Source: a virus
Taxonomy: Duplodnaviria; Caudoviricetes
Direction: 5' to 3' (one strand)
DNA length: 41,365 nucleotides
IMG/VR virus record: IMGVR_UViG_3300033434_000010
Location: 1 to 41,365 of that record
Each line of letters opens with the position of its first letter. Positions within the stretch are counted from its first letter, which is position 1. Both the position numbers and the translations under genes were made by a program. Below the pieces are notes generated by a model. The model was not told the DNA's origin. It saw only the letters and a program-made list of their open reading frames with translations, and ran no database searches. Shown piece after piece: positions 1,650 through 41,213 of the stretch.

Positions 1650-1853
1650 TCATTCAGATTTCTTAAGCCATTTAATTTCATAACCAATATTAGATAATAC
1701 CTTTTCTAGCTCTAAGTACCTAATAGTGCCAGTGTTTAGCTTCTTATTAAGGTTTTGCTGATTAAATCCACTTTCCTTATATACTTGAGTTTCTGATTTT
1801 CCTTCAATCAGTAATAACTTGCGCAGCTCAAGGGTTAATTGTTCAGGTGTCAC
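1650..1853 (-). CDS. Small helix-turn-helix protein, putative prophage repressor
   Basis: 67 aa with XRE/Cro-like HTH pattern (SETQVYKESGFNQQNLNKKLNTG..RYLELEKVL..IGY), AGGAGG SD, divergent from the lytic operon. Confidence 0.75.
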   Translation of the reverse strand: MTPEQLTLELRKLLLIEGKSETQVYKESGFNQQNLNKKLNTGTIRYLELEKVLSNIGYEIKWLKKSE

Positions 1854-1913: not shown

Positions 1914-1986
1914 CAGTTAAAAGTTGTTGACAACAGTGTTTGACAGTGATAATATGTAATTAACAGCTAATCACTGTAGGTAACAG
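1904..1986. promoter_or_regulatory. Five operator-like repeats NNGT-N5-ACAG
   Basis: ACAG at 1913, 1933, 1943, 1963, 1983. The best copy is the palindrome CTGT-AGGTA-ACAG (1974-1986). The repeats overlap both promoters. Confidence 0.6.
1927..1955 (+). promoter_or_regulatory. Sigma-A/70 early lytic promoter (TTGACA-17-TAATAT)
   Basis: Consensus -35 at 1927-1932 and TAATAT at 1950-1955, upstream of the rightward early operon. Confidence 0.75.
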
Positions 1987-2251: not shown

Positions 2252-2454
2252 AAAAGTCTAATCTTTATGGTAAGAAGGTAGCTAATTTTAGAGGATGGTC
2301 TATCTACAAACAGGGCTGTGAAGAGACTGCAGTAACTTATGATCTCTATCTACCAGAACAATCACCACATTATATGGATTATCCGGAATGGTCCACAGAT
2401 AGTCTGGAAGAGGCAAAAGAGTTTATTAGAGATTATAACAAGGAGGTCAAATAA
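2248..2454 (+). CDS. Hypothetical early protein
   Basis: GAGGAGG SD, 68 aa, operonic spacing. Confidence 0.75.
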   Translation: MKKSNLYGKKVANFRGWSIYKQGCEETAVTYDLYLPEQSPHYMDYPEWSTDSLEEAKEFIRDYNKEVK

Positions 2455-2455
2455 A

Positions 2456-2974
2456 ATGACTATTAAAATTGCATTGACAAACCTAGGGAAATACAACGAG
2501 GGCAACCTCATCTACAAATGGGTAGAGCTTCCGGCTACTGAGGAGGAACTCAAGGCTGCAATGGATGCTATAGGGATTAATGAAGAGTATGAGGAGTTCT
2601 TTATCACTGATTCTGAGACTGATATAGAAGGGCTTAAGATTGGCGAATATGAGAACCTGGACAATCTTAATGAATTAGCTGAAGAGCTTGAGAACCTCAC
2701 AGATGACGAACTAGAAATAGTGTCTGCAATCCTGGAAGTACCTCTTCATATGACCTAGAGGGGGGCTCTAGAGCTCCTCAGGGAGGGTGACTACAGCTAT
2801 TATTCAGACATCACTGATGAAACTGAACTAGGTGAATATGTAGTTGAGGAAGGTCTCTTTGGTGAAGTTCCTGAGAATCTCCGTAACTATCTAGATTATG
2901 AAGCCATAGGGAGTGATTGGAGAATAAACGCTGGAGGGTCCTTCACTTCTAAAGGTTACATAGAGTTTCACTGA
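2456..2974 (+). pseudogene. ardA: Antirestriction protein ArdA with internal TAG at 2756-2758
   Basis: MTIKIALTNLGKYNEGNLIYKWVELP...EEFFITD at the N-terminus. After the TAG the same frame continues ...ELGEYVVEEGLFGEVPENLRNYLDYEAIGSDW...FTSKGYIEFH*, a typical ArdA C-terminus. Strongly acidic. Confidence 0.85.
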
Positions 2975-2976
2975 TA

Positions 2977-3054
2977 TGTCGAAACCTCTAGATTCTTTTG
3001 CAGGGTCTGGAGGTCTACCGAGGGATAGCCGCCCGGTACTGATGAGACAGGCTA
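2977..3054 (+). ncRNA. Type II hammerhead ribozyme (HH1)
   Basis: TGTC-GAAA-stem III(ACCTCTAGA/TCTGGAGGT)-C3015 cleavage site (GUC)-stem I(TACCG/CGGTA)-CTGATGA-GACA. Loop TAGCC pairs with 3' tail GGCTA (pseudoknot). Confidence 0.9.
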
Positions 3055-3076
3055 AAGATAAAGGAGAGATGATAAC

Positions 3077-3466
3077 ATGTATGATTTTGACACTAGGCAT
3101 AAGGTAGCTAGTGGTACTGCCAATCCAACCCATTTCTGGTCAGGTAACTGTCAGGAAATCCGTGAGGAACTCCTCCGACAAGCTGTAAAGTCCTGTGATA
3201 TGTATGCTACCGATATTCTTATCCTTTTAGAACGTAGTAGCGGAACTATGGAGGCTTTCCTAAAGGTTGATGGTCATGCCCATATTGAGATTTACTTTAT
3301 GAGAAGTGGTTGCGCATGGGCTTTGAAAACTCATGAAGGTCTAATAGGTAATGTTGGCAGCTTACCTTTTCAATATCGTGCAGCTATGGTGTTAACTAAA
3401 GAGCCTCATCCTGAGTTTTCTGATGAGTATAACTTTGCACTCTACAGCCTTTCAGGTACTGTGTGA
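3077..3466 (+). CDS. Hypothetical early protein flanked by two ribozymes
   Basis: AAGGAG SD, 129 aa. Confidence 0.8.
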   Translation: MYDFDTRHKVASGTANPTHFWSGNCQEIREELLRQAVKSCDMYATDILILLERSSGTMEAFLKVDGHAHIEIYFMRSGCAWALKTHEGLIGNVGSLPFQYRAAMVLTKEPHPEFSDEYNFALYSLSGTV

Positions 3467-3542
3467 GTCGAAACCTAAGGAGCCCTTCAAGGCTCCTGAT
3501 GGTCTTCCGGAGATAGCCTCCCGGAACCGATGAGACAGGCTA
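3467..3542 (+). ncRNA. Type II hammerhead ribozyme (HH2, variant core CCGAUGA)
   Basis: GTC-GAAA-stem III(ACC..GGAGCC/GGCTCC..GGT)-C3504-stem I(TTCCGG/CCGGAA)-CCGATGA-GAC. Loop TAGCCT pairs with tail AGGCTA. Stems differ from HH1 while pairing is preserved. Confidence 0.85.
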
Positions 3543-3720
3543 ACTAGTCGAGCAAGCTTAGGTCAACCTAAATTTGAGCTGACTTGAGCTAACTTGAAGG
3601 TCAACCTATGCTAAGTCAGCTTTTGGCCTCTTTGGTTTTTCCTGCTAGACTACAAACAGATGTTCCCTTACAACTAAATAGGGACAGGCCAATGTGTAGA
3701 TTAAATCAAAAGGGAGATGC

Positions 3721-3879
3721 ATGCACAATATGAAGAAACCACAGTTAGACGCTTATGAACTATCGGGGAAACTTGCTTCAGCTTTAGATAACCGAAATTG
3801 GCGAGAGGTTGAAGAGTGTTTTCGTATTCTGATAAGTCATAAGAAGCAACTACAAACGTACAATAGCAAACGCAAATAA
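3721..3879 (+). CDS. Small hypothetical protein (52 aa)
   Basis: AAGGGAG SD, MHNMKKPQLDAYELSGKLASALDNRNWREVEECFRILISHKKQLQTYNSKRK; below the track cut-off. Confidence 0.55.
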   Translation: MHNMKKPQLDAYELSGKLASALDNRNWREVEECFRILISHKKQLQTYNSKRK

Positions 3880-3917
3880 TTGGGTAATCTCCAACAATTT
3901 CAAACTGTGTTAAGAGA

Positions 3918-3958
3918 AGGGTTTAGTGGTCTGCAGCTACTGAGTCCTACTTTTTTTT
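3918..3958 (+). terminator. Terminator-like hairpin immediately upstream of the RNAP gene
   Basis: 13-bp stem AGGGTTTAGTGGT/GCTACTGAGTCCT with 5 G-U pairs, followed by AC and T8. Confidence 0.55.
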
Positions 3959-3988
3959 GTCCAATAAACGAAAAGGGAGAGGATACTA

Positions 3989-6622
3989 ATGGAAAAATAT
4001 ATCAGATTATACGGAAAAGAACTCTTTGACGAGGAACTCAAACTGGAAGACTATTATAGGGAACTAGCCCAAGACTCCTTACAGACCACTATTGATAAAG
4101 CTGTAGCAAATTCTCAAGTTGAGTCCACACAAGTAGGTAAAAAGTTAGTAAGCTATGGTCTGGAGGATGCAAGGAAGGCAGTAGAAATCTGGTATGAAGA
4201 CCTTAAGAAGCCTAAAAGAGGCGTAAAGCCAACCTATAGTATAATCATTTTGGACATGCTGAAGATATTCCAGAAGAGTTGTAAGAGTCTTGATGACCCA
4301 CAAGAGGAAGCCCTGCAGAAGGCTGAGAGAGAATCTGAATTAATTGACCTCATAACCTATATAACCTTAGCTACTATAATAAACACCATAGGGAGACCTG
4401 ATGGAATACCCTGCAATAATGTTGCTCATATAGTAGCAAAGGAGCTGCAGGAGGAATTGAAGGTAGAAGCCTTTATCAATACATTACCTAAGCATACCCT
4501 AAAGGGGCTCCTTGAAGGTATTAAGACTAGAGGAGACAAGCACTACAAGACCTATTATGCACGTCAAGCAATGGTGAAGCAAGGCTTTGAGTGGTCTAAA
4601 TGGAACAAGAAAGACATGCTGATACTGGCTAGGCAGCTAATACAACTAGTTGTTGAGGGCTCAGGGTATTTTGAAATAGTTCTCCCACATACAGAGAAGG
4701 GAGATGGACAGGACATCATACAGCCAACTGACTGGCTCCTTAAGGCATGGACCTCAAACACTGACAAGCTCCTCAATAGGGTCTTTCACAACTGCCCTAT
4801 GGTTATACCTCCACTTCCCTGGACTTCCTTAAAGAATGGAGGTTACTATGGAGCCCTCCACGGTAGACATACATTGTTGAGGTCAGAGTCCCTCCGAGGT
4901 AGTGACCAGTCAGTATTTACCAAAGAGTATCTTGAGCGTATGGAAGAGGCTGACATCTCAGAGGTAAAGGAAGCTATAAACATTATTCAACAGACTCCCT
5001 GGAGGATTAATAAGGAAGTGTTTAGGGTACTAGAAGCAATCCTTGAGGCTGGTGGGGATATCGCAGAGGTTCCAAGCCTGAGGGAGCTCCCACAGACACC
5101 AAACCTCCCAGAAGGATACACAGAGGAGGAGCTCAAGAGACATAAAAAGAGGAAATGGGAGACATACAAAAAGGAGGTCACACGCAGATCAGTGGCCTCA
5201 AGGTGCTTAAGTCATTTCAAGTTAGCTCAAAATTATCTGAAATATGAAAGAATTTATTTCCCTTACAATATGGATTTCAGAGGTAGAGTCTATCCTATAT
5301 CTAGCTTCAGCCCTCAAAGTGATGATGTAAACAAGGGGCTCCTGGAGTTTGCTGATGCTCCCCCCTGCAATACTATGGATGACATTAAAATGTTAATGAT
5401 ACATGGTGCAAATGTGGCAGGAGTGGACAAGGTTTCCTTTAAAGAGAGGCAGCAATGGGTCTTAGATCACGAAGAGCAAATCCTCAGGAGTGCTGCAGAC
5501 CCTCTAGGTTACCGTTGGTGGGCTGAGCAGGATGATTCTAGCTTCCAGCTTCTAGCCTTCTGCTTTGAGTGGTCAAGATGGAAAGACTACTATGCGACCT
5601 ATAAGACAGCTAAAGGCTTTGCCTGCAATATTCCTGTGGCGTTTGATGGAACCTGTTCGGGCCTTCAGCATTATTCAGCACTTCTCAGAGACTCCATAGG
5701 TGGTACTGCTGTTAATTTAGTACCTGGAGAGGCTCCAAATGACATCTATGGTGTAGTGGCAAAAGGTGTCATTAAGCTGCTAGAGAAAGACCTGGAGAAG
5801 GGTACAGGGGACGAACAGACACAATATGAGGATAGGAGTATAATGAAGTTTGGAACGCGCTCACTCGCTCAACAATGGTTAACCTATGGGGTAACGCGCA
5901 AGGTTACTAAAAGAAGTGTTATGACCCTCCCCTACGGCTCTAAAGAGTTTGGCTTTAAACAACAACTATTAGAAGATGTCATAAAACCAGCCCAAAAGGA
6001 AGGCAGAGGCGACATGTTTATTTCTCCTACGCAGTCTGCTCAGTATATGGCAAAGAAGATTTGGCAGGTAGTTCAGAAGGTAGTAGTTAAGGCCATGGAG
6101 GGCATGAAGTACCTGCAAGAGGTCTCCCGCAAGGTCTGCGGAGAAGGTAGAATAATTACTTGGGTCACACCTATGGGACTCCCTATACAGCAGGCATATA
6201 TGGTATATAGTGCTGAAAAAATTCAACCTCGGCTGTCTAATGGTTGCCGTAAATGGATATACACTCAGACACCTACAGGTAATATAGATAAGCATGCTCA
6301 AGTTAATGGTATTGCTCCTAACTTTATTCATAGCCTTGATGCTTCACATTTGCAGTTAACAGTACTCAATAGCCGTAAAGGAGGAATAAAGCATTTTGCA
6401 TTAATACATGATAGTTTCGGATGCCCTGCAAGTCAAGCAGCTACCCTTTTTAAGACAGTTAGAGAGTCTTTTATTCAGCTATACACGCAGTATAATCCCT
6501 TAGAGACCTTTACACAGAACTTAGCTATGTACTTAGAATACCCTGAAGACCTCCCTGATATACCCAAAAAGGGAAATTTAGACTTGAATATCCTTAGAGA
6601 ATCCCTTTATATGTTTGCTTAA
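3989..6622 (+). CDS. T7-like single-subunit DNA-directed RNA polymerase (gp1)
   Basis: 877 aa; DFRGRVY, FDGTCSGLQH (motif A), RKVTKRSVMTLPYGS (motif B), IHDSFG (motif C), C-terminal YMFA. Confidence 0.98.
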   Translation: MEKYIRLYGKELFDEELKLEDYYRELAQDSLQTTIDKAVANSQVESTQVGKKLVSYGLEDARKAVEIWYEDLKKPKRGVKPTYSIIILDMLKIFQKSCKSLDDPQEEALQKAERESELIDLITYITLATIINTIGRPDGIPCNNVAHIVAKELQEELKVEAFINTLPKHTLKGLLEGIKTRGDKHYKTYYARQAMVKQGFEWSKWNKKDMLILARQLIQLVVEGSGYFEIVLPHTEKGDGQDIIQPTDWLLKAWTSNTDKLLNRVFHNCPMVIPPLPWTSLKNGGYYGALHGRHTLLRSESLRGSDQSVFTKEYLERMEEADISEVKEAINIIQQTPWRINKEVFRVLEAILEAGGDIAEVPSLRELPQTPNLPEGYTEEELKRHKKRKWETYKKEVTRRSVASRCLSHFKLAQNYLKYERIYFPYNMDFRGRVYPISSFSPQSDDVNKGLLEFADAPPCNTMDDIKMLMIHGANVAGVDKVSFKERQQWVLDHEEQILRSAADPLGYRWWAEQDDSSFQLLAFCFEWSRWKDYYATYKTAKGFACNIPVAFDGTCSGLQHYSALLRDSIGGTAVNLVPGEAPNDIYGVVAKGVIKLLEKDLEKGTGDEQTQYEDRSIMKFGTRSLAQQWLTYGVTRKVTKRSVMTLPYGSKEFGFKQQLLEDVIKPAQKEGRGDMFISPTQSAQYMAKKIWQVVQKVVVKAMEGMKYLQEVSRKVCGEGRIITWVTPMGLPIQQAYMVYSAEKIQPRLSNGCRKWIYTQTPTGNIDKHAQVNGIAPNFIHSLDASHLQLTVLNSRKGGIKHFALIHDSFGCPASQAATLFKTVRESFIQLYTQYNPLETFTQNLAMYLEYPEDLPDIPKKGNLDLNILRESLYMFA

Positions 6623-6625
6623 ATT

Positions 6626-6644
6626 TAATTGGCACACATATTGA
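6626..6644 (+). promoter_or_regulatory. Phage RNAP promoter 1 (TAATTGGCACACATATTGA)
   Basis: Intergenic repeat directly after the RNAP gene, the position of T7 phi1.1A; same motif found 6 times, all on +. Confidence 0.85.
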
Positions 6645-13854: not shown

Positions 13855-14541
13855 GTGATAATTTTGGTTATTGGAGAAGGAGACTTCTGGATACCTAATG
13901 AGGGCTGTAGACATTCTGCAGCCTATATTTATAAGGAAATCTTTGAGGAACATCTTTATGAGAATGATATGGTAGAGGTAGAGCCTGGAGATGTGGTCTT
14001 AGATGTGGGAGCTAATGTAGGTATGTTCACTACCTTTGCTCTGAATAGAGGAGCCTCCTCAGTTATCTCTATGGAGCCTGATACTGACTGCTTTGATTGC
14101 CTTAAAATGAATACGATGCACAATAAGAGTCTTTCTGTTCTCCAGGCCGCTTGGGCCTTTTCTTGTTATAAGGACTTTGTTTCTTATGATGAGCGCAAGG
14201 GCAGTAGTCATATTAATGGAGCCTACACTACTGAAGCTGATGCACCACATAAATACATTCTTGGTATCCGCTGCATTGCTATAGATGCCCTCCTTAAAAG
14301 TGTTTCTGTAGACTTCATAAAGATGGATATTGAAGGGTCCGAGAAACAAGCTATTTTAGGTGCTGTTGAAACTATAGCTAGGTGTAAGCCTAAATTAGCT
14401 ATTGCTGCTTACCATCATGAGGATGACCTCAAGGACATCCCTAAGCTGCTTAACCTTATCACTCCTTATGAATGCTTCGTTAAGGAATCCCCAATGGGAT
14501 ACAACGAGAAAATCCTATTGTGTAGACCTATTAAGCCATGA
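13855..14541 (+). CDS. FkbM-family SAM-dependent methyltransferase
   Basis: VLDVGANVGMF, EP, VDFIKMDIEGSE, PKLAI..YH motifs. Confidence 0.9.
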   Translation: MIILVIGEGDFWIPNEGCRHSAAYIYKEIFEEHLYENDMVEVEPGDVVLDVGANVGMFTTFALNRGASSVISMEPDTDCFDCLKMNTMHNKSLSVLQAAWAFSCYKDFVSYDERKGSSHINGAYTTEADAPHKYILGIRCIAIDALLKSVSVDFIKMDIEGSEKQAILGAVETIARCKPKLAIAAYHHEDDLKDIPKLLNLITPYECFVKESPMGYNEKILLCRPIKP

Positions 14542-14725: not shown

Positions 14726-15376
14726 ATGTTTGCTACAACTTGGAAGGACCTTATGCCTAGAAAGAAAAGCTTAGAGGAAGTCTTTGATACTTTTAAGGTT
14801 GATGTTTTGAAAGTCTTAAAGGAGACTCAAGAGGCTCAAGAAGGGCAAGCAATATGCCCTACACAGTTAGCTGTTAGACCTATGGGATTTGATGAGGTTC
14901 TTGTGAAGTCTAAAGCAGCCCTTACTTTTAATGAAAGTAGGCAAATATTGAGGAACCCTCCAGTTATTCGTAAGTATACTCGTAGAGGTTGGACTGCTAA
15001 AGGAATGTGGATTAGACTCATCGAGGGCTTAAGAAATGAGAAACCACATTTCATCATGAAGACTTCCTCCGGAGATTTTGCTGTATGGTTCCCTTCAGTA
15101 TGTGACCTCTTAGCTGAGGATTGGGAAGAGGTTAAACAACCAGGAGCTCTAAAGGTAAAGAAACCCTGTACTATCTTCATTAAAGAATGTGACCTGCGAC
15201 ACCTTGGGGGCTTAGAGGATACTACTTTATATGGACAGTTGCACAAGGCTGGTTTTATATCCGTTAAAGCTGTACGTACACTAGGCACTCAATATGGTTA
15301 TGAGTATAAACTTAAGGATACTCCTGAGAACCTCATAGTACCTTTTAAGGTGGTGAATGCTGATGAGTGCTCATAG
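14726..15376 (+). CDS. DUF2829 / Tad2-like domain protein with N- and C-terminal extensions
   Basis: RRGWTAKGMWI...PHFIMKTSSG...WFPSVCDLLAEDW signature. Confidence 0.75.
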   Translation: MFATTWKDLMPRKKSLEEVFDTFKVDVLKVLKETQEAQEGQAICPTQLAVRPMGFDEVLVKSKAALTFNESRQILRNPPVIRKYTRRGWTAKGMWIRLIEGLRNEKPHFIMKTSSGDFAVWFPSVCDLLAEDWEEVKQPGALKVKKPCTIFIKECDLRHLGGLEDTTLYGQLHKAGFISVKAVRTLGTQYGYEYKLKDTPENLIVPFKVVNADECS

Positions 15377-16385: not shown

Positions 16386-16571
16386 ATGGCTAAAGGTATA
16401 CTTAAATTTTCTGTTACTGTCACAAACAATAATCTTGAGGAGGATAAGGTTACTATACTAAAGAATTGCCCTCAGGAAGTGCTAAAACTGGCGTTGTTAA
16501 AAGAGCTGAGAGGTGTTTATCCAGCAGACGGTATTACTTTAGACTCCCTCAATATGGAGGTAATTGACTGA
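16386..16571 (+). CDS. Hypothetical protein
   Basis: 61 aa, tightly packed in the operon. Confidence 0.65.
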   Translation: MAKGILKFSVTVTNNNLEEDKVTILKNCPQEVLKLALLKELRGVYPADGITLDSLNMEVID

Positions 16572-16927
16572 TGCAAGACTGCATGGGTAATGAGTTACAG
16601 GTAGGTGATACTGTAGCCTATGTATCAAGACCTGGTGGTAAGAGACATCTTGTCAGAGGTTACATTCACACTATTAATGCAAAGACTGCTAATGTTGTGA
16701 ACAAGGAAGGTAACTATCAAGGTTATGCGCATCCTGAGCAGATAGTCAAGGTTCCTTCAGAGGCTCAAGTGATAGTCTCTCAGGAGTATCTTGGTGAACT
16801 CCTGGAAGCCTCTACAGAGCTTTCCTACTTGGAAGCTGCTGGAGTTGATAACTGGGAAGGCTATGATATTGCTCATGACATGCGGCGGGAAGCTGAGGGT
16901 AAAGAGGAGGAGCCTGAGGATGAGTAG
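16571..16927 (+). CDS. Hypothetical phage protein
   Basis: GGAGG SD, SH3-like N-terminus, LEAAGVDNWEGY motif common in small phage proteins. Confidence 0.75.
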   Translation: MQDCMGNELQVGDTVAYVSRPGGKRHLVRGYIHTINAKTANVVNKEGNYQGYAHPEQIVKVPSEAQVIVSQEYLGELLEASTELSYLEAAGVDNWEGYDIAHDMRREAEGKEEEPEDE

Positions 16928-36570: not shown

Positions 36571-38319
36571 TTGTACCCTTGGAGTAATGAACAAATAGAA
36601 AGAGCCAAAGATGACTTCAGGGTGTTTCTGTGGGTAGTGTGGAGGGCTATAAGCCTTCCTAACCCTACAGAGATACAAATAGCAATGGCATATGATGTAG
36701 CTAACCCTCCCTCAGATCGTATGATTCTTGAAGGGTTTCGAGGAGTAGCTAAGTCCTTTATAACGTGTGCCTATTGTGTCTGGGAGCTTTGGCGTAACCC
36801 TATATTAAAAATTGAGGTAGTCTCTGCTAATAAAGAGAAGGCAGACCTCAATGCAGCCTTTATCAAAAAGATCATTAATATTATGCCTTTCCTGGAGTGC
36901 CTTAAGTTAACCGCTGACGATAGAGTAGCAGGGATGAGAGACACCAATAATCTCTTTGATGTCCATGGAGCAAAACCTGATATTAGTCCTTCAGTTAAGT
37001 CTGTAGGTATCACAGGACAGCTCACCGGGAGCCGTGCAGACATCCTAGTATCTGATGACGTGGAAGTACCGAGTAACTCTGCTACACAACTTCAGAGGGA
37101 CCGCCTTGGGGAACTCGTTAAAGAGTATGATGCTATCCTAAAGCCTGGAGGCCGTATCATCTACTTAGGGACTCCTCAATGTGAGGCCAGTTTGTATGTA
37201 GAGCTTGGCAATCGTGGTTATGAAACTATCATCTACCCTGTAGAGTATCCTAGTAGTGCTGATGAGAGGGCCTTCTACGGGAGTCGCTTAGGTAAGCTTC
37301 TAGCAGACCGCTATGATGTTGAACCTGAGAAGTGGGCAGGCAAGCCTACAGACCCTGCACGTTTCAATGAGGAAGAGATCGAAAAGAGAAAGCTCTCCTA
37401 TGGTCGGGCCGGGTTTGCTCTTCAGTTTATGCTTAACACTAACCTTAGTGATGCTGATAAATTTCCTCTTAAGGTGGCAGACCTCATTGTAGCTGCTCTT
37501 GATCGAGAAGAGACGAGTATTAAGTGGGCTTGGGCTAGTGGTCAACAGCAGAGGATTGCAGACATACCCTGTACTGCCCTTAAAGGTGACTTCTTCTACA
37601 TGCCTTTTGAGAGGTCCAAGGAGTGCCTGAAGTATAAGGGTACTATGATGTTTATAGACCCAAGCGGAAGAGGTTCTGATGAGACAGCCTATGCTATTAC
37701 ACGCTTCTTAAATGGTTATATATTTTTGGTAGAAGTTGGAGGTTATCGAGACGGTTATTCTGATGAAACCCTTAAGGCACTAGCAAACAAGGCTAAGTTC
37801 TGGGGAGTCAATAGTGTACGTATTGAGCCTAACTTTGGTGATGGTATGTTTACTAAGCTAATAACTCCTGTATTCATTGAAATCCACCCTTGTGATGTCC
37901 AAGAGTCCAAGTCAGCTAAAGGCCAGAAGGAAGCCCGTATCATCGATATCTTAGAGCCTGTCCTCAGTAGACATAAATTAATTGTAGAACCCTCAGTCCT
38001 TCAGGCTGATTTTGAGGTCTATATGAAAGACTTCAAGTATTCCCTTATCTACCAGATGACACGCTTATGCAAAGATAAAGGAGCCCTAGCTCATGATGAC
38101 CGGATAGAAGCAGTAGCTAATGCTGTATTGTTCTGGCTTGAGTCTATGGCTATGGATGCTGACATGGGTGCTGAAGAACTACTTGAGGAAGAACTGGAGA
38201 AGTGGCTAGACCCTGATAGAGGTGTCTTGTATATTGAAGAACCTATCAAGACCCTGAAGAAAGGTTCACTGGGAATGGACACTATATTAGCTAATATCCT
38301 TGATACATTCTGGAAGTAA
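36571..38319 (+). CDS. Terminase large subunit (gp19)
   Basis: FRGVAKS, SVGITGQLTGSRAD, DDVE, LGTPQ, IDPSGRG.DET, HDDR motifs. Confidence 0.98.
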   Translation: MYPWSNEQIERAKDDFRVFLWVVWRAISLPNPTEIQIAMAYDVANPPSDRMILEGFRGVAKSFITCAYCVWELWRNPILKIEVVSANKEKADLNAAFIKKIINIMPFLECLKLTADDRVAGMRDTNNLFDVHGAKPDISPSVKSVGITGQLTGSRADILVSDDVEVPSNSATQLQRDRLGELVKEYDAILKPGGRIIYLGTPQCEASLYVELGNRGYETIIYPVEYPSSADERAFYGSRLGKLLADRYDVEPEKWAGKPTDPARFNEEEIEKRKLSYGRAGFALQFMLNTNLSDADKFPLKVADLIVAALDREETSIKWAWASGQQQRIADIPCTALKGDFFYMPFERSKECLKYKGTMMFIDPSGRGSDETAYAITRFLNGYIFLVEVGGYRDGYSDETLKALANKAKFWGVNSVRIEPNFGDGMFTKLITPVFIEIHPCDVQESKSAKGQKEARIIDILEPVLSRHKLIVEPSVLQADFEVYMKDFKYSLIYQMTRLCKDKGALAHDDRIEAVANAVLFWLESMAMDADMGAEELLEEELEKWLDPDRGVLYIEEPIKTLKKGSLGMDTILANILDTFWK

Positions 38320-39557: not shown

Positions 39558-39617
39558 AAGATTAGCGGTAGGTGGTTGTCTTTCAAATTAATCAAAGAGA
39601 GCAGAAGGAGGATAAGC

Positions 39618-41213
39618 ATGTTTGCTCTATTGAAAGATAACAACCAACAAAAATCTTCCATTGTATATAATGTAGGTCTTTACTTAAGATTATCACGTGA
39701 AGATGGGGACTCATCAGAGTCTACGAGTATAACTAATCAGAGGGACTTTCTCACAAGGTATGTATTAGAGCAAGGATGGAACCTTGTAGATGTCTTTATT
39801 GATGATGGCTTTTCTGGCACTAACTTTAATCGTCCGGACTTCCAAAGACTCCTTAAGGCTGTTGAGAGTCGGCAGATTAACCTTGTAATAACTAAAGACC
39901 TCTCCAGACTTGGGCGGGATTATATTGACACAGGTTATTATGTCGAAAAGTATTTCCCTAGCCAAAATATTAGGTATATTGCCTTAAATGATGGTGTAGA
40001 CACATTTGACACTAACAACAGCAATAATGATATGAGCCCTTTTAAGTCCGTAATGAATGACTTCTACGCTAGGGATATCTCAAAGAAAGTCAGAACAACC
40101 ATGAATATCAAGCGGAAGAATGGTCAGTTTATTGGTTCCTTTGCTCCTTATGGCTACCTCAAGTCCCCACTGGATAAGAACAAGCTTATAGTAGACCCTC
40201 AAGCTGCTCCAGTAGTAAAAAGGATATTTGAGATGTACCTAGATGGTGCTGGCTACAGACACATATCTCACACTCTAAACAGTGAAAAAGTGGCATGTCC
40301 GAGTGTCCATAAGGCAGCTCAGTATGATAAGTATAGAAATGCTAAGGCTACCTCAGGATTATGGACATCAGAGGCCATTAAAGTAATTCTCCTTAATCCT
40401 ACTTATGCAGGTAACTTGGCACAACACAAATATACTATGGTTAGCTATAAGGTAAAGAAGCTTAAGGCAACTTCTAGGGACTCCTGGCTTATAGTGTATG
40501 GAACCCATGAGCCTATAGTCGACCCAAGTACCTTTGAGGTAGCTCAACAGATTATGACAGCAAAGGCTCCTATGCTTAAGGTAGGTACAAGGAAAGTCCA
40601 TCTCCTGGGTGGTCTGTTGTATTGTAAAGACTGTGGAGCACGAATGACCTTTACTAAGACACAAAAGGGGATATGGTATTGTATCTGCTCCAGTAACAAA
40701 AACTTCAAAAGGTGCTCAAGACACTCATATATTGAGGCAGAACTTGAAGACTACATTGTAGATGACCTCAGGAGAATCGCTAAGGCTGCTGTGGTAGATC
40801 GGAGTGAACTTATCCAGATAGCCCAAGAGGAAACTGGAGAAAAGGTCAAGACAACAGCGACTAGGATATCCAAGGAAATCTCCACAATAGAGAAGCGGCT
40901 GGATGAGATAAAGAGGATAATCAAGGCACTCTATGAGGATAAATTAAAAGGGATTCTCACAGAGCAGGACTTCATAGACCTCTCAAGGGAGTATAGTAGC
41001 GAAAGGGAGTCCTTGTCTTCTAGGTTGTCTAAACTCTCAGGAAGCCCCCAGATAGAACAGGATGCTTCAAATGAAGACTTCATGCACTATGTATTAGACC
41101 TCCTTGAAGTTAATAAGTTAACGCGAGTACTAATAAGTAAGTTGATAAGCCGTGTAGAAATAACCGAGGATAAAACCATAGAAATCTATTATAATTTTAA
41201 GAACCCTCTTTGA
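39618..41213 (+). CDS. Large serine recombinase (integrase)
   Basis: YLRLS catalytic Ser, [27 protein letters not shown], Zn ribbon CKDCG...C...C, coiled coil. AAGGAGG SD favours ATG 39618. Confidence 0.97.

What the first reader, a model, noticed from the sequence alone, without database searches (positions are those of the whole stretch)
2977..3542. Two self-cleaving hammerhead ribozymes punctuate the early operon
Seen: two type II hammerheads, each starting within 3 nt of a stop codon (ardA 2974; ORF 3466). They have complete cores, GUC cleavage sites (3015, 3504), stems that differ in sequence but keep pairing, and a shared loop-I/3'-tail pseudoknot (TAGCC/GGCTA). Cleavage would release ORF 3077-3466 as a ~490-nt monocistronic RNA with 5'-OH and 2',3'-cyclic phosphate ends. 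Known: T7 cuts its early mRNA at gene boundaries with host RNase III. Inference: this phage uses ribozymes for host-independent processing, which could set the stability of the downstream RNAP message or allow circularisation by an RtcB-type ligase.
Basis: partly seen in the sequence, partly recalled or inferred. Interest (0 to 1): 0.88.

Follow-up and report, generated by a model that had tools for sequence, protein, structure and literature searches.

The report
Hammerhead ribozymes punctuate phage early genes
Two hammerhead-type RNA motifs sit at gene boundaries in the early region of a temperate T7-like phage and likely cut its early message into hairpin-capped pieces; related phages carry a long hairpin, likely cut by a host enzyme, at the same spot, but clustered phage hammerheads have been known since 2011.

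Summary
Rfam Hammerhead_II matches 2977-3056 (41.8 bits, above cut-off) and 3466-3544 (29.8, below cut-off). The second has a U4C core change, so only the first core is canonical. The window is a temperate T7-like phage, probably of Negativicutes. In 158 loci found through the RNA polymerase gene, 22 hammerheads lie on the sense strand upstream of it, none antisense; stem I and the pseudoknot covary. Behind ardA, 2 phages carry a hammerhead and 4 carry a long RNase III-type hairpin, which supports the T7 analogy. Tandem prophage hammerheads beside ardA, the pseudoknot, the processing idea and the circle idea (looked for, not detected) are all in Perreault 2011. This scan has noted the same arrangement 16 times on other DNA. 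Verdict: real, a new member of a known kind, cleavage and purpose untested here.

The parts
1927..1955 (+). sigma-70/sigma-A-type promoter candidate (TTGACA-17-TAATAT, extended TG) at the head of the early operon
   Evidence: 10 of 12 matches; consensus match only; the scan found 6 sites against 6.2 expected by chance. No phage-promoter copy lies in the early region.
2456..2974 (+). ardA anti-restriction gene, interrupted by an in-frame TAG at 2756-2758
   Evidence: PF07275 on both halves; 63% identical over 171 aa to the intact ArdA of L160 with one stop; the 100-aa short form is on all 3 contigs on record while 38 relatives are 165-174 aa
2977..3054 (+). HH1: type II hammerhead, canonical core CUGAUGA (3039-3045), predicted cut after C3015, pseudoknot TAGCC 3026-3030 with GGCTA 3050-3054
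   Evidence: Rfam RF02276 41.8 bits, above gathering score; motif positions
3061..3066 (+). Shine-Dalgarno-like AAGGAG, start codon 62 nt after the HH1 cut
   Evidence: sequence; distance
3077..3466 (+). 129-aa orphan early ORF, the only gene on the predicted 489-nt piece
   Evidence: one homolog at 61% besides itself; no PHROG, Pfam or usable Atlas hit
3467..3542 (+). HH2: type II hammerhead with U4C core (CCGAUGA 3527-3533), predicted cut after C3504, pseudoknot TAGCC 3514-3518 with GGCTA 3538-3542
   Evidence: Rfam RF02276 29.8 bits, E 0.035, below gathering score; U4C in 8 of 24 distinct related hammerheads
3576..3622 (+). inverted repeat with an AGGTCAACC motif inside (second copy at 3560), shared with two other T7-like phages; possible operator or RNA hairpin
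3623..3666 (+). candidate SOS promoter: TTGGCC-17-TAGACT with extended TG, followed by a LexA-box-like site at 3653-3666
   Evidence: only site scoring >=11 of 13 in the 41 kb; enriched upstream of RNAP in relatives; the hexamers (8 of 12) fall below the threshold and were read by eye
3721..3879 (+). 52-aa ORF; a 75% identical homolog is the first early gene of L203, where a hammerhead follows it
3918..3958 (+). intrinsic-terminator-like hairpin (13 pairs) with T-run, just before the RNAP gene
3989..6622 (+). T7-type single-subunit RNA polymerase
   Evidence: phrog_414 E 8e-238; 36% to T7 RNAP

Best explanation
Two type II hammerheads sit directly behind stop codons in the early region of this temperate T7-like phage and likely cut the host-polymerase early transcript at 3015/3016 and 3504/3505, doing the job that long RNase III-type hairpins likely do at the same positions in related phages. 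The type II layout is predicted to leave both new ends protected: the upstream piece ends in the strong stem III hairpin and the downstream piece begins with stem I plus the pseudoknot, and only the 3-4 bp stem II joins them, so the pieces would part and rarely reseal. HH1 would give ORF 3077-3466 a fixed, structured 5' leader of 62 nt; HH2 would give it a hairpin 3' end and separate this message from the likely SOS-controlled unit (ORF 3721, RNAP) downstream. Shown here: motifs, positions, covariation, strand and region bias, slot-sharing with hairpins. Inferred: transcription from 1927-1955, cleavage, RNase III action on the hairpins, end protection, any effect on expression. HH2 (U4C) is likely slower.
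For: Rfam matches. In 158 loci fetched through the RNAP gene only, a strict descriptor gave 20 hits in 12 loci, all sense and 0.5-2.9 kb upstream of RNAP, 0 antisense in the same 849 kb and 0 in 1.07 Mb downstream on either strand; a looser one gave 22 in 13 loci, 0 antisense, 1 downstream. Of the four closest prophages (RNAP 50-58%), 3 carry one or two (G132, G054, G013; none found in G036). Among 24 distinct hammerheads the first four stem I pairs take 3-4 pair types each and stem III folds at -9.9 to -17.8 kcal/mol. Pseudoknot on 19 aligned copies: 94.7% of cells paired, 3 of 5 pairs with changes on both sides, 0 of 500 shuffles as high, slid controls 26-31%; native loop-tail pairs reach 5 bp in 16 of 24 against 23% of cross pairs. 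16 of 24 start within 15 nt of a stop and 20 of 24 have an SD-start within 75 nt of the cut. After ardA: hammerhead in the window and L160, long interrupted hairpin without U-tail in L083, L085, L161, L229 (z -3.9 to -5.2). In 46 de-duplicated loci, early spacers of 45 nt or more held 53 long hairpins and 11 hammerheads of 195, middle-region spacers 22 and 0 of 213. Stem II duplex only -2 to -2.9 kcal/mol. [quoted passage not shown]
Against: No cleavage or RNA-end data for this phage. HH2 is below the Rfam cut-off and U4C lowers activity considerably in vitro (PMC3088659 section 11). In a folding model cleavage at HH1 does not change the accessibility of the ORF 3077 ribosome-binding site, so translational unmasking is not supported. 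Only 13 of 158 RNAP loci carry the motif, falling in about three clades with duplicates (L192 = L193), so it is dispensable for the group. The long hairpins were not tested for RNase III determinants, the spacer classes rest on crude ORF calls and 100 of 195 early spacers fit no class. ardA upstream of HH1 is broken. In Bacillus the 5'-OH product of the glmS ribozyme is degraded by RNase J1, and all 5 host genomes tested encode RNase J, so the cut could also destabilise.
Confidence: 0.6

Rival explanations
1. The cuts dampen rather than stabilise: 5'-OH pieces are handed to RNase J, as with glmS, which limits early-gene output and, for HH2, removes read-through RNA heading towards the RNAP gene in the lysogen.
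For: glmS precedent in B. subtilis; RNase J in 5 of 5 host genomes; HH2 has no ribosome-binding site behind it and lies just upstream of the LexA-box promoter candidate and terminator.
Against: The new 5' end is base-paired from its first nucleotide in the folding models, and 20 of 24 hammerheads have an SD-start 55-69 nt after the cut, a layout that looks made for expression.
Confidence: 0.15
2. The hammerhead-plus-SD unit is mainly a mobile cassette joint: near-identical copies let early genes be gained, lost and shuffled by recombination, and cleavage is a tolerated side effect.
For: Flanking genes differ from phage to phage; the ORF 3721 homolog is first in L203 but last here; copies within one phage can be nearly identical (L192).
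Against: Compensatory changes in stem I and the pseudoknot show selection on RNA structure; the two copies in this window differ in stem III.
Confidence: 0.12
3. One or both motifs are decaying relics in a partly degenerate early region.
For: U4C and sub-threshold score of HH2; broken ardA.
Against: U4C recurs in 8 of 24 related copies across clades and is a known active natural variant; all helices and the pseudoknot are intact; the same stem III internal-loop form occurs in L203, L160 and L256.
Confidence: 0.08
4. The 489-nt piece is closed into a circular mRNA, by RtcB or by the chimeric hammerhead that its own two ends (HH2 5' half, HH1 3' half) can form through the shared GUC/GAC stem II.
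For: The ends have the right chemistry and stem II is identical in both motifs.
Against: No RtcB in the phage or in G132, G013, G054; stem II duplex only about -2 kcal/mol; circles were looked for and not detected in three published arrays; several related phages have a single hammerhead.
Confidence: 0.05

Closest known systems
Clustered hammerhead ribozymes of prophages, including the triple array around ardA in Agrobacterium tumefaciens (Perreault et al. 2011, PMC3088659; sections 6, 8, 11 part 1, passages and Figure S2 text read)
   Same: Several hammerheads flanking single genes in a prophage; ardA as neighbour; type II topology with loop I/3'-tail pseudoknot; processing into gene-length mRNAs proposed; circles considered.
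   Different: Here the host is likely a Negativicute and the phage is shown to be T7-like with a serine integrase; ardA lies upstream of the first hammerhead and is broken; one copy is U4C. The published Agrobacterium context (ardA, MarR, tRNA, integrase) resembles temperate T7-like phages, but I did not test that it holds a T7-type polymerase.
Rfam RF02276 Hammerhead_II
   Same: Full-length model match for both motifs.
   Different: HH2 scores under the gathering threshold; stem III is long and strong here whereas weak stems III are described as common.
RNase III processing of the phage T7 early mRNA (PMC4858673, passages read)
   Same: Host-polymerase early polycistron upstream of and including the RNAP gene, cut between genes.
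   Different: Protein-free cut with 5'-OH and cyclic-phosphate ends instead of RNase III ends; here a terminator and a LexA-box promoter candidate separate the RNAP gene from the punctuated part; no T7-type kinase was found among the ORFs scanned.
Type II hammerheads near phage-like genes of Desulfovibrio vulgaris (PMC8782182, passages read)
   Same: Type II, phage-like context, shown to cleave in cells.
   Different: At separate genome locations; purpose not determined.
glmS ribozyme of Bacillota (passages of PMC6765202 and 10.1101/2023.03.12.532304)
   Same: Self-cleavage in an mRNA leader giving a 5'-OH downstream piece in a host with RNase J.
   Different: glmS is ligand-dependent and triggers decay; these hammerheads show no ligand domain and start their 3' piece with a helix.

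Membership tests
Hammerhead ribozyme, type II (RF02276) | Core C3-U4-G5-A6-N7-G8-A9 and G12-A13-A14-A15.1, HH1 | tested here: met
   CTGATGA at 3039, CGAAAC at 2980
Hammerhead ribozyme, type II (RF02276) | Same canonical core, HH2 | tested here: not met
   CCGATGA at 3527 (U4C). Filed as a core variant, not as a canonical member; U4C is a described active natural variant and recurs in 8 of 24 related copies
Hammerhead ribozyme, type II (RF02276) | NUH cleavage triplet with A15.1-U16.1 pair | tested here: met
   GUC at 3013-3015 and 3502-3504
Hammerhead ribozyme, type II (RF02276) | Stems I and III closed by loops, stem II open with G10.1-C11.1 | tested here: met
Hammerhead ribozyme, type II (RF02276) | Pseudoknot between loop I and the 3' tail | tested here: met
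   5 bp in both; covariation across 19 copies
Hammerhead ribozyme, type II (RF02276) | Rfam gathering score of 37 bits | tested here: inconclusive
   HH1 41.8 (met), HH2 29.8 with E 0.035 (not met)
Hammerhead ribozyme, type II (RF02276) | Site-specific self-cleavage | not testable with these tools
   needs in vitro transcription or RNA-end data
Clustered prophage hammerheads (Perreault 2011) | Two or more hammerheads flanking single genes or short gene blocks in a temperate phage | tested here: met
   ORF 3077-3466 flanked; serine integrase at 39576-41213
Clustered prophage hammerheads (Perreault 2011) | Flanked genes vary; ardA is a recurring neighbour | tested here: met
   ardA precedes a hammerhead in the window and in L160
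T7-type RNase III processing sites | Long interrupted hairpin cut by host RNase III between early genes | tested here: not met
   The two elements are hammerheads, so they can only work like such sites; long hairpins occupy the same slot in relatives, their cleavage by RNase III was not tested
Ribozyme-generated circular RNAs (viroid-like RNAs, retrozymes; definition recalled) | Unit-length RNA released from repeats and ligated to a circle | not testable with these tools
   No tandem repeat of the unit; no RtcB in the phage; no RNA data

The most novel reading that the evidence does not exclude
The 489-nt piece carries complementary halves of two hammerheads at its ends, which reassemble through the shared GUC/GAC stem II and self-ligate, giving a double-stranded-DNA phage a protein-free route to a nuclease-proof circular mRNA for one early gene, insulated from a LexA-gated polymerase unit downstream.
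Probability: 0.05. Interest if true: 0.8.

Novelty: new member of a known kind. Interest (0 to 1): 0.3.

Why it matters
What bacterial and phage self-cleaving ribozymes are for is still an open question (PMC6765202, PMC6155905; passages read). This locus does not answer it, but its family gives a clean natural experiment: in T7-like prophages of Negativicutes the slot behind ardA holds either a hammerhead or an RNase III-type hairpin, and some lysogens are named gut or fermentation bacteria (Dialister with a hammerhead, Pectinatus with a hairpin). Swapping one module for the other would test directly whether phage hammerheads are plain mRNA punctuation. The side finding, a conserved LexA box in front of the RNAP gene, suggests how these temperate T7-like phages are induced and may deserve its own follow-up.

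Tried and rejected
The search for related loci with the single RNAP protein found no relative in viral or genome contigs; the alignment A1 did. No sequencing run was listed for 2400-4200: no RNA holder listed, no evidence either way. Function of ORF 3077-3466: no PHROG or Pfam family, one homolog, no usable Atlas hit; no fold was attempted with two sequences. blastn of HH1 against cultured phages gave only short partial matches, none covering 80%; ArdA relatives among 29 cultured-phage records were not followed up. A third look-alike at 37672-37691 lies inside the terminase gene and lacks the 5' half: rejected. A third CTGATGA at 3420 lies inside the ORF and forms no hammerhead. Other ribozyme classes: none in the window, none in 12 early regions at E<=0.5 or 9 loci at gathering score. 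Ribosome-site unmasking by the HH1 cut: not seen in the folding model. Phage-promoter-driven transcription of the early region: no copy of the repeated promoter-like motif before 6626. The downstream hit in L177 lacks the GTC/GAC frame and is treated as chance. Two of four matches to the inverted-repeat pattern (L269, L271) lie in GC-rich coding DNA and are treated as chance. The pattern scan fixes the pseudoknot tail and was therefore not used for frequency counts; one of its hits (L054) is among the 19 rows of alignment A3. MAFFT misplaces stems I and III by a column between subfamilies, so only stem II and the pseudoknot were counted on A3; stem I was counted by anchors.

Full report
The observation. 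cmscan of the 41,365-base window against Rfam returned three matches at E<=1, two of them Hammerhead_II on the + strand: 2977-3056 (41.8 bits, above the gathering score of 37) and 3466-3544 (29.8 bits, E 0.035, below it). Stem II begins 3 and 0 nt after the preceding stops and the piece between the cuts is 489 nt. Two corrections: HH2 reads CCGAUGA (U4C) and has an internal loop in stem III; and ardA (2456-2974) is interrupted by an in-frame TAG at 2756-2758, the 100-aa short form standing on all 3 contigs on record while 38 relatives are 165-174 aa.

The phage. The window is a whole virus record with T7-type RNA polymerase, replication and virion genes and a large serine integrase: a temperate T7-like phage. 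Its polymerase is 36% identical to that of T7; the closest named relatives are from Anaeroselena (56%) and Anaeromusa (48%), so the host is likely a Negativicute (inference). A repeated promoter-like motif occurs six times, first at 6626, never in the early region, so the early genes are likely read by host polymerase, for instance from the consensus site at 1927-1955 (such sites were no more frequent than chance).

Relatives. To avoid selecting on the RNA, I fetched loci through the polymerase gene: 78 from GTDB genomes and 80 from IMG/VR (the best 80 of 110 and of 581 confirmed stretches, the viral scan covering 22 of 64 parts). A strict descriptor found 20 type II hammerheads in 12 of these 158 loci, all on the sense strand 0.5-2.9 kb upstream of the polymerase, none antisense in the same 849 kb and none in 1.07 Mb downstream; a looser one found 22 in 13 loci, 0 antisense, 1 downstream. 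The carriers are not independent: about three clades, with L192 and L193 duplicates. Among 401 Negativicutes genomes 14 held such a polymerase; of the four closest (50-58%), G132 has two hammerheads, G054 and G013 one each, and none was found in G036. In 24 distinct copies (22 related, 2 from the window) the first four pairs of stem I take three to four pair types each, stem III folds at -9.9 to -17.8 kcal/mol, and U4C occurs 8 times. The pseudoknot, counted on 19 aligned copies, is 94.7% paired with both-side changes in 3 of 5 pairs (0 of 500 shuffles; slid controls 26-31%; related sequences inflate such counts). 16 of 24 begin within 15 nt of a stop and 20 of 24 have an SD-start within 75 nt of the cut. 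The flanking genes change from phage to phage. HH1 fits this grammar (start 62 nt after the cut); HH2 does not (217 nt).

The T7 analogy. Six loci have a full ardA. In the window and L160 a hammerhead follows its stop; in L083, L085, L161 and L229 a long hairpin with an internal loop and no U-tail follows it (z -3.9 to -5.2). Over 46 loci (55 with polymerase identity of at least 35.5% and 2.5 kb upstream, reduced to 43 by removing near-duplicates, plus the window, L256, L257), spacers of 45 nt or more in the early region held 53 long hairpins, 11 hammerheads, 31 terminator-like and 100 unclassified of 195; in the middle region 22, 0, 26 and 165 of 213 (Fisher p 3e-8, but loci are related and ORF calls crude). 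[quoted passage not shown] Several hammerhead carriers keep such hairpins too, and 5 of 5 lysogen genomes tested encode RNase III, so the ribozyme does not stand in for a missing host enzyme; it looks like an alternative module.

How it likely works. Type II topology leaves stem III on the 3' end of the upstream piece and stem I with the pseudoknot on the 5' end of the downstream piece (folds), joined only by a stem II of -2 to -2.9 kcal/mol. The cut would therefore give two capped pieces that part. I put 0.6 on this punctuation reading. Against it: no RNA data; the model shows no unmasking of the ORF 3077 ribosome-binding site; in Bacillus the 5'-OH piece of glmS is degraded by RNase J1 (10.1101/2023.03.12.532304, passages) and RNase J is in 5 of 5 hosts.

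The polymerase message and the circle. Between HH2 and the polymerase gene lie an inverted repeat (3576-3622), a promoter candidate (3623-3651, read by eye, 8 of 12, below the scan's threshold) followed by the only LexA-box-like site of the genome at score 11 of 13 or better (3653-3666), ORF 3721 and a terminator-like hairpin (3918-3958). The GAAC-N4-GTTC core is the Bacillota LexA motif (PMC3323433, one passage; the extended consensus is recalled). Such a box lies in the 1 kb before the polymerase in 19 of 48 loci (17 of 46 without the window and L272, which was picked by a motif search), against 1 of 41 in middle genes, 2 of 47 further upstream, 0-2 of 48 for six altered motifs and a mean of 0.95 in resampled DNA; lexA is in 5 of 5 hosts. 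RtcB is absent from the phage and was found in 1 of 5 host genomes, not in the three closest (incomplete genomes do not prove absence).

What is known. Perreault et al. 2011 (PMC3088659; sections 6, 8, first part of 11, passages and the text of Figure S2 read) describe type II hammerheads, the loop I/3'-tail pseudoknot, arrays flanking single genes in prophages, the ardA link, processing into gene-length mRNAs, cleavage in vitro and in E. coli, and a fruitless search for spliced or circular products. Reviews repeat the processing idea and call the function open (PMC6765202, PMC6155905; passages). Phage-associated type II hammerheads cleave in Desulfovibrio cells (PMC8782182, passages). Temperate T7-like phages are known (PMC10134795, passages; the words ribozyme, RNase III and LexA do not occur in it). 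A search for Autographiviridae + ribozyme + hammerhead returned 0 papers, and none of the 25 listed of 94 holds the phrase self-cleaving ribozyme. The library lacks most subscription papers; Roth 2014 and Weinberg 2015 were not read (recalled), and their supplements and Dataset S1 of Perreault 2011 may list such loci. So the explicit hammerhead/hairpin slot-sharing in T7-like phages was not found in print by these searches, but the arrangement is published. Earlier notes of this scan report the same thing 16 times on other genomes, slot-sharing at least three times and an SOS box before a T7-like polymerase once; these are unchecked notes, not support.

Verdict. Real, well supported as structure, a new member of a known kind; interest 0.3. 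The value lies in the testable swap between hammerhead and hairpin in a Bacillota phage group and in the LexA side finding.

Noticed in passing
window 3623-3666; relatives L160, L203, L257, L099, L188, L189, L202, L230 and others: A Bacillota-type LexA box lies within 1 kb upstream of the RNAP gene in 19 of 48 related loci against 0-2 in all controls; suggests SOS control of the phage polymerase in these temperate T7-like phages.
   Followed up: partly
window 3553-3622; L203:7062-7116; L272:1495-1550: Inverted repeat enclosing AGGTCAACC directly upstream of the LexA-box promoter candidate in three T7-like phages; the motif is doubled in the window (3560, 3598). Possible operator of the divergent small HTH protein or an RNA hairpin.
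   Followed up: partly
window 2756-2758: In-frame TAG inside ardA; the short 100-aa form is on all 3 contigs on record. Real pseudogene or shared assembly error could not be told apart.
   Followed up: partly
window 3918-3990: Terminator-like hairpin immediately before the RNAP gene; its T-run could pair with the purine-rich ribosome-binding region. Similar terminators precede RNAP in L160 and L203, the latter with a phage-promoter-like motif in front.
   Followed up: no
window 6626, 6711, 14673, 22009, 38322, 38349: Six copies of TAATTGKNNCACATAT, likely the phage RNAP promoter (7 matches at 2 mismatches against 0.79 expected); two lie before ORF 38570 and the integrase.
   Followed up: partly
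window 3475-3502; L203:5735-5768; L160:1625-1654; L256:2555-2587: One hammerhead subfamily keeps the same internal loop in stem III (UA opposite GAN) next to the core; resembles the UAA/GAN loop motif (recalled, not tested).
   Followed up: no
window 14726-15376 and 16571-16927: Anti-defence candidates in the middle region: Tad2-like domain (PF11195) and T7 gp5.9-like RecBCD inhibitor (PF25708); also an FkbM methyltransferase at 13855-14541.
   Followed up: no
window 1650-1853 (-): Small divergent HTH-like ORF with homologs upstream of the early operon in L200 and L203; repressor candidate.
   Followed up: no
L019:3248-3322 (-); L061:4001-4074: The same hammerhead form also occurs between genes of phages that are not T7-like, one looking phi29-like by its gene set.
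   Followed up: no
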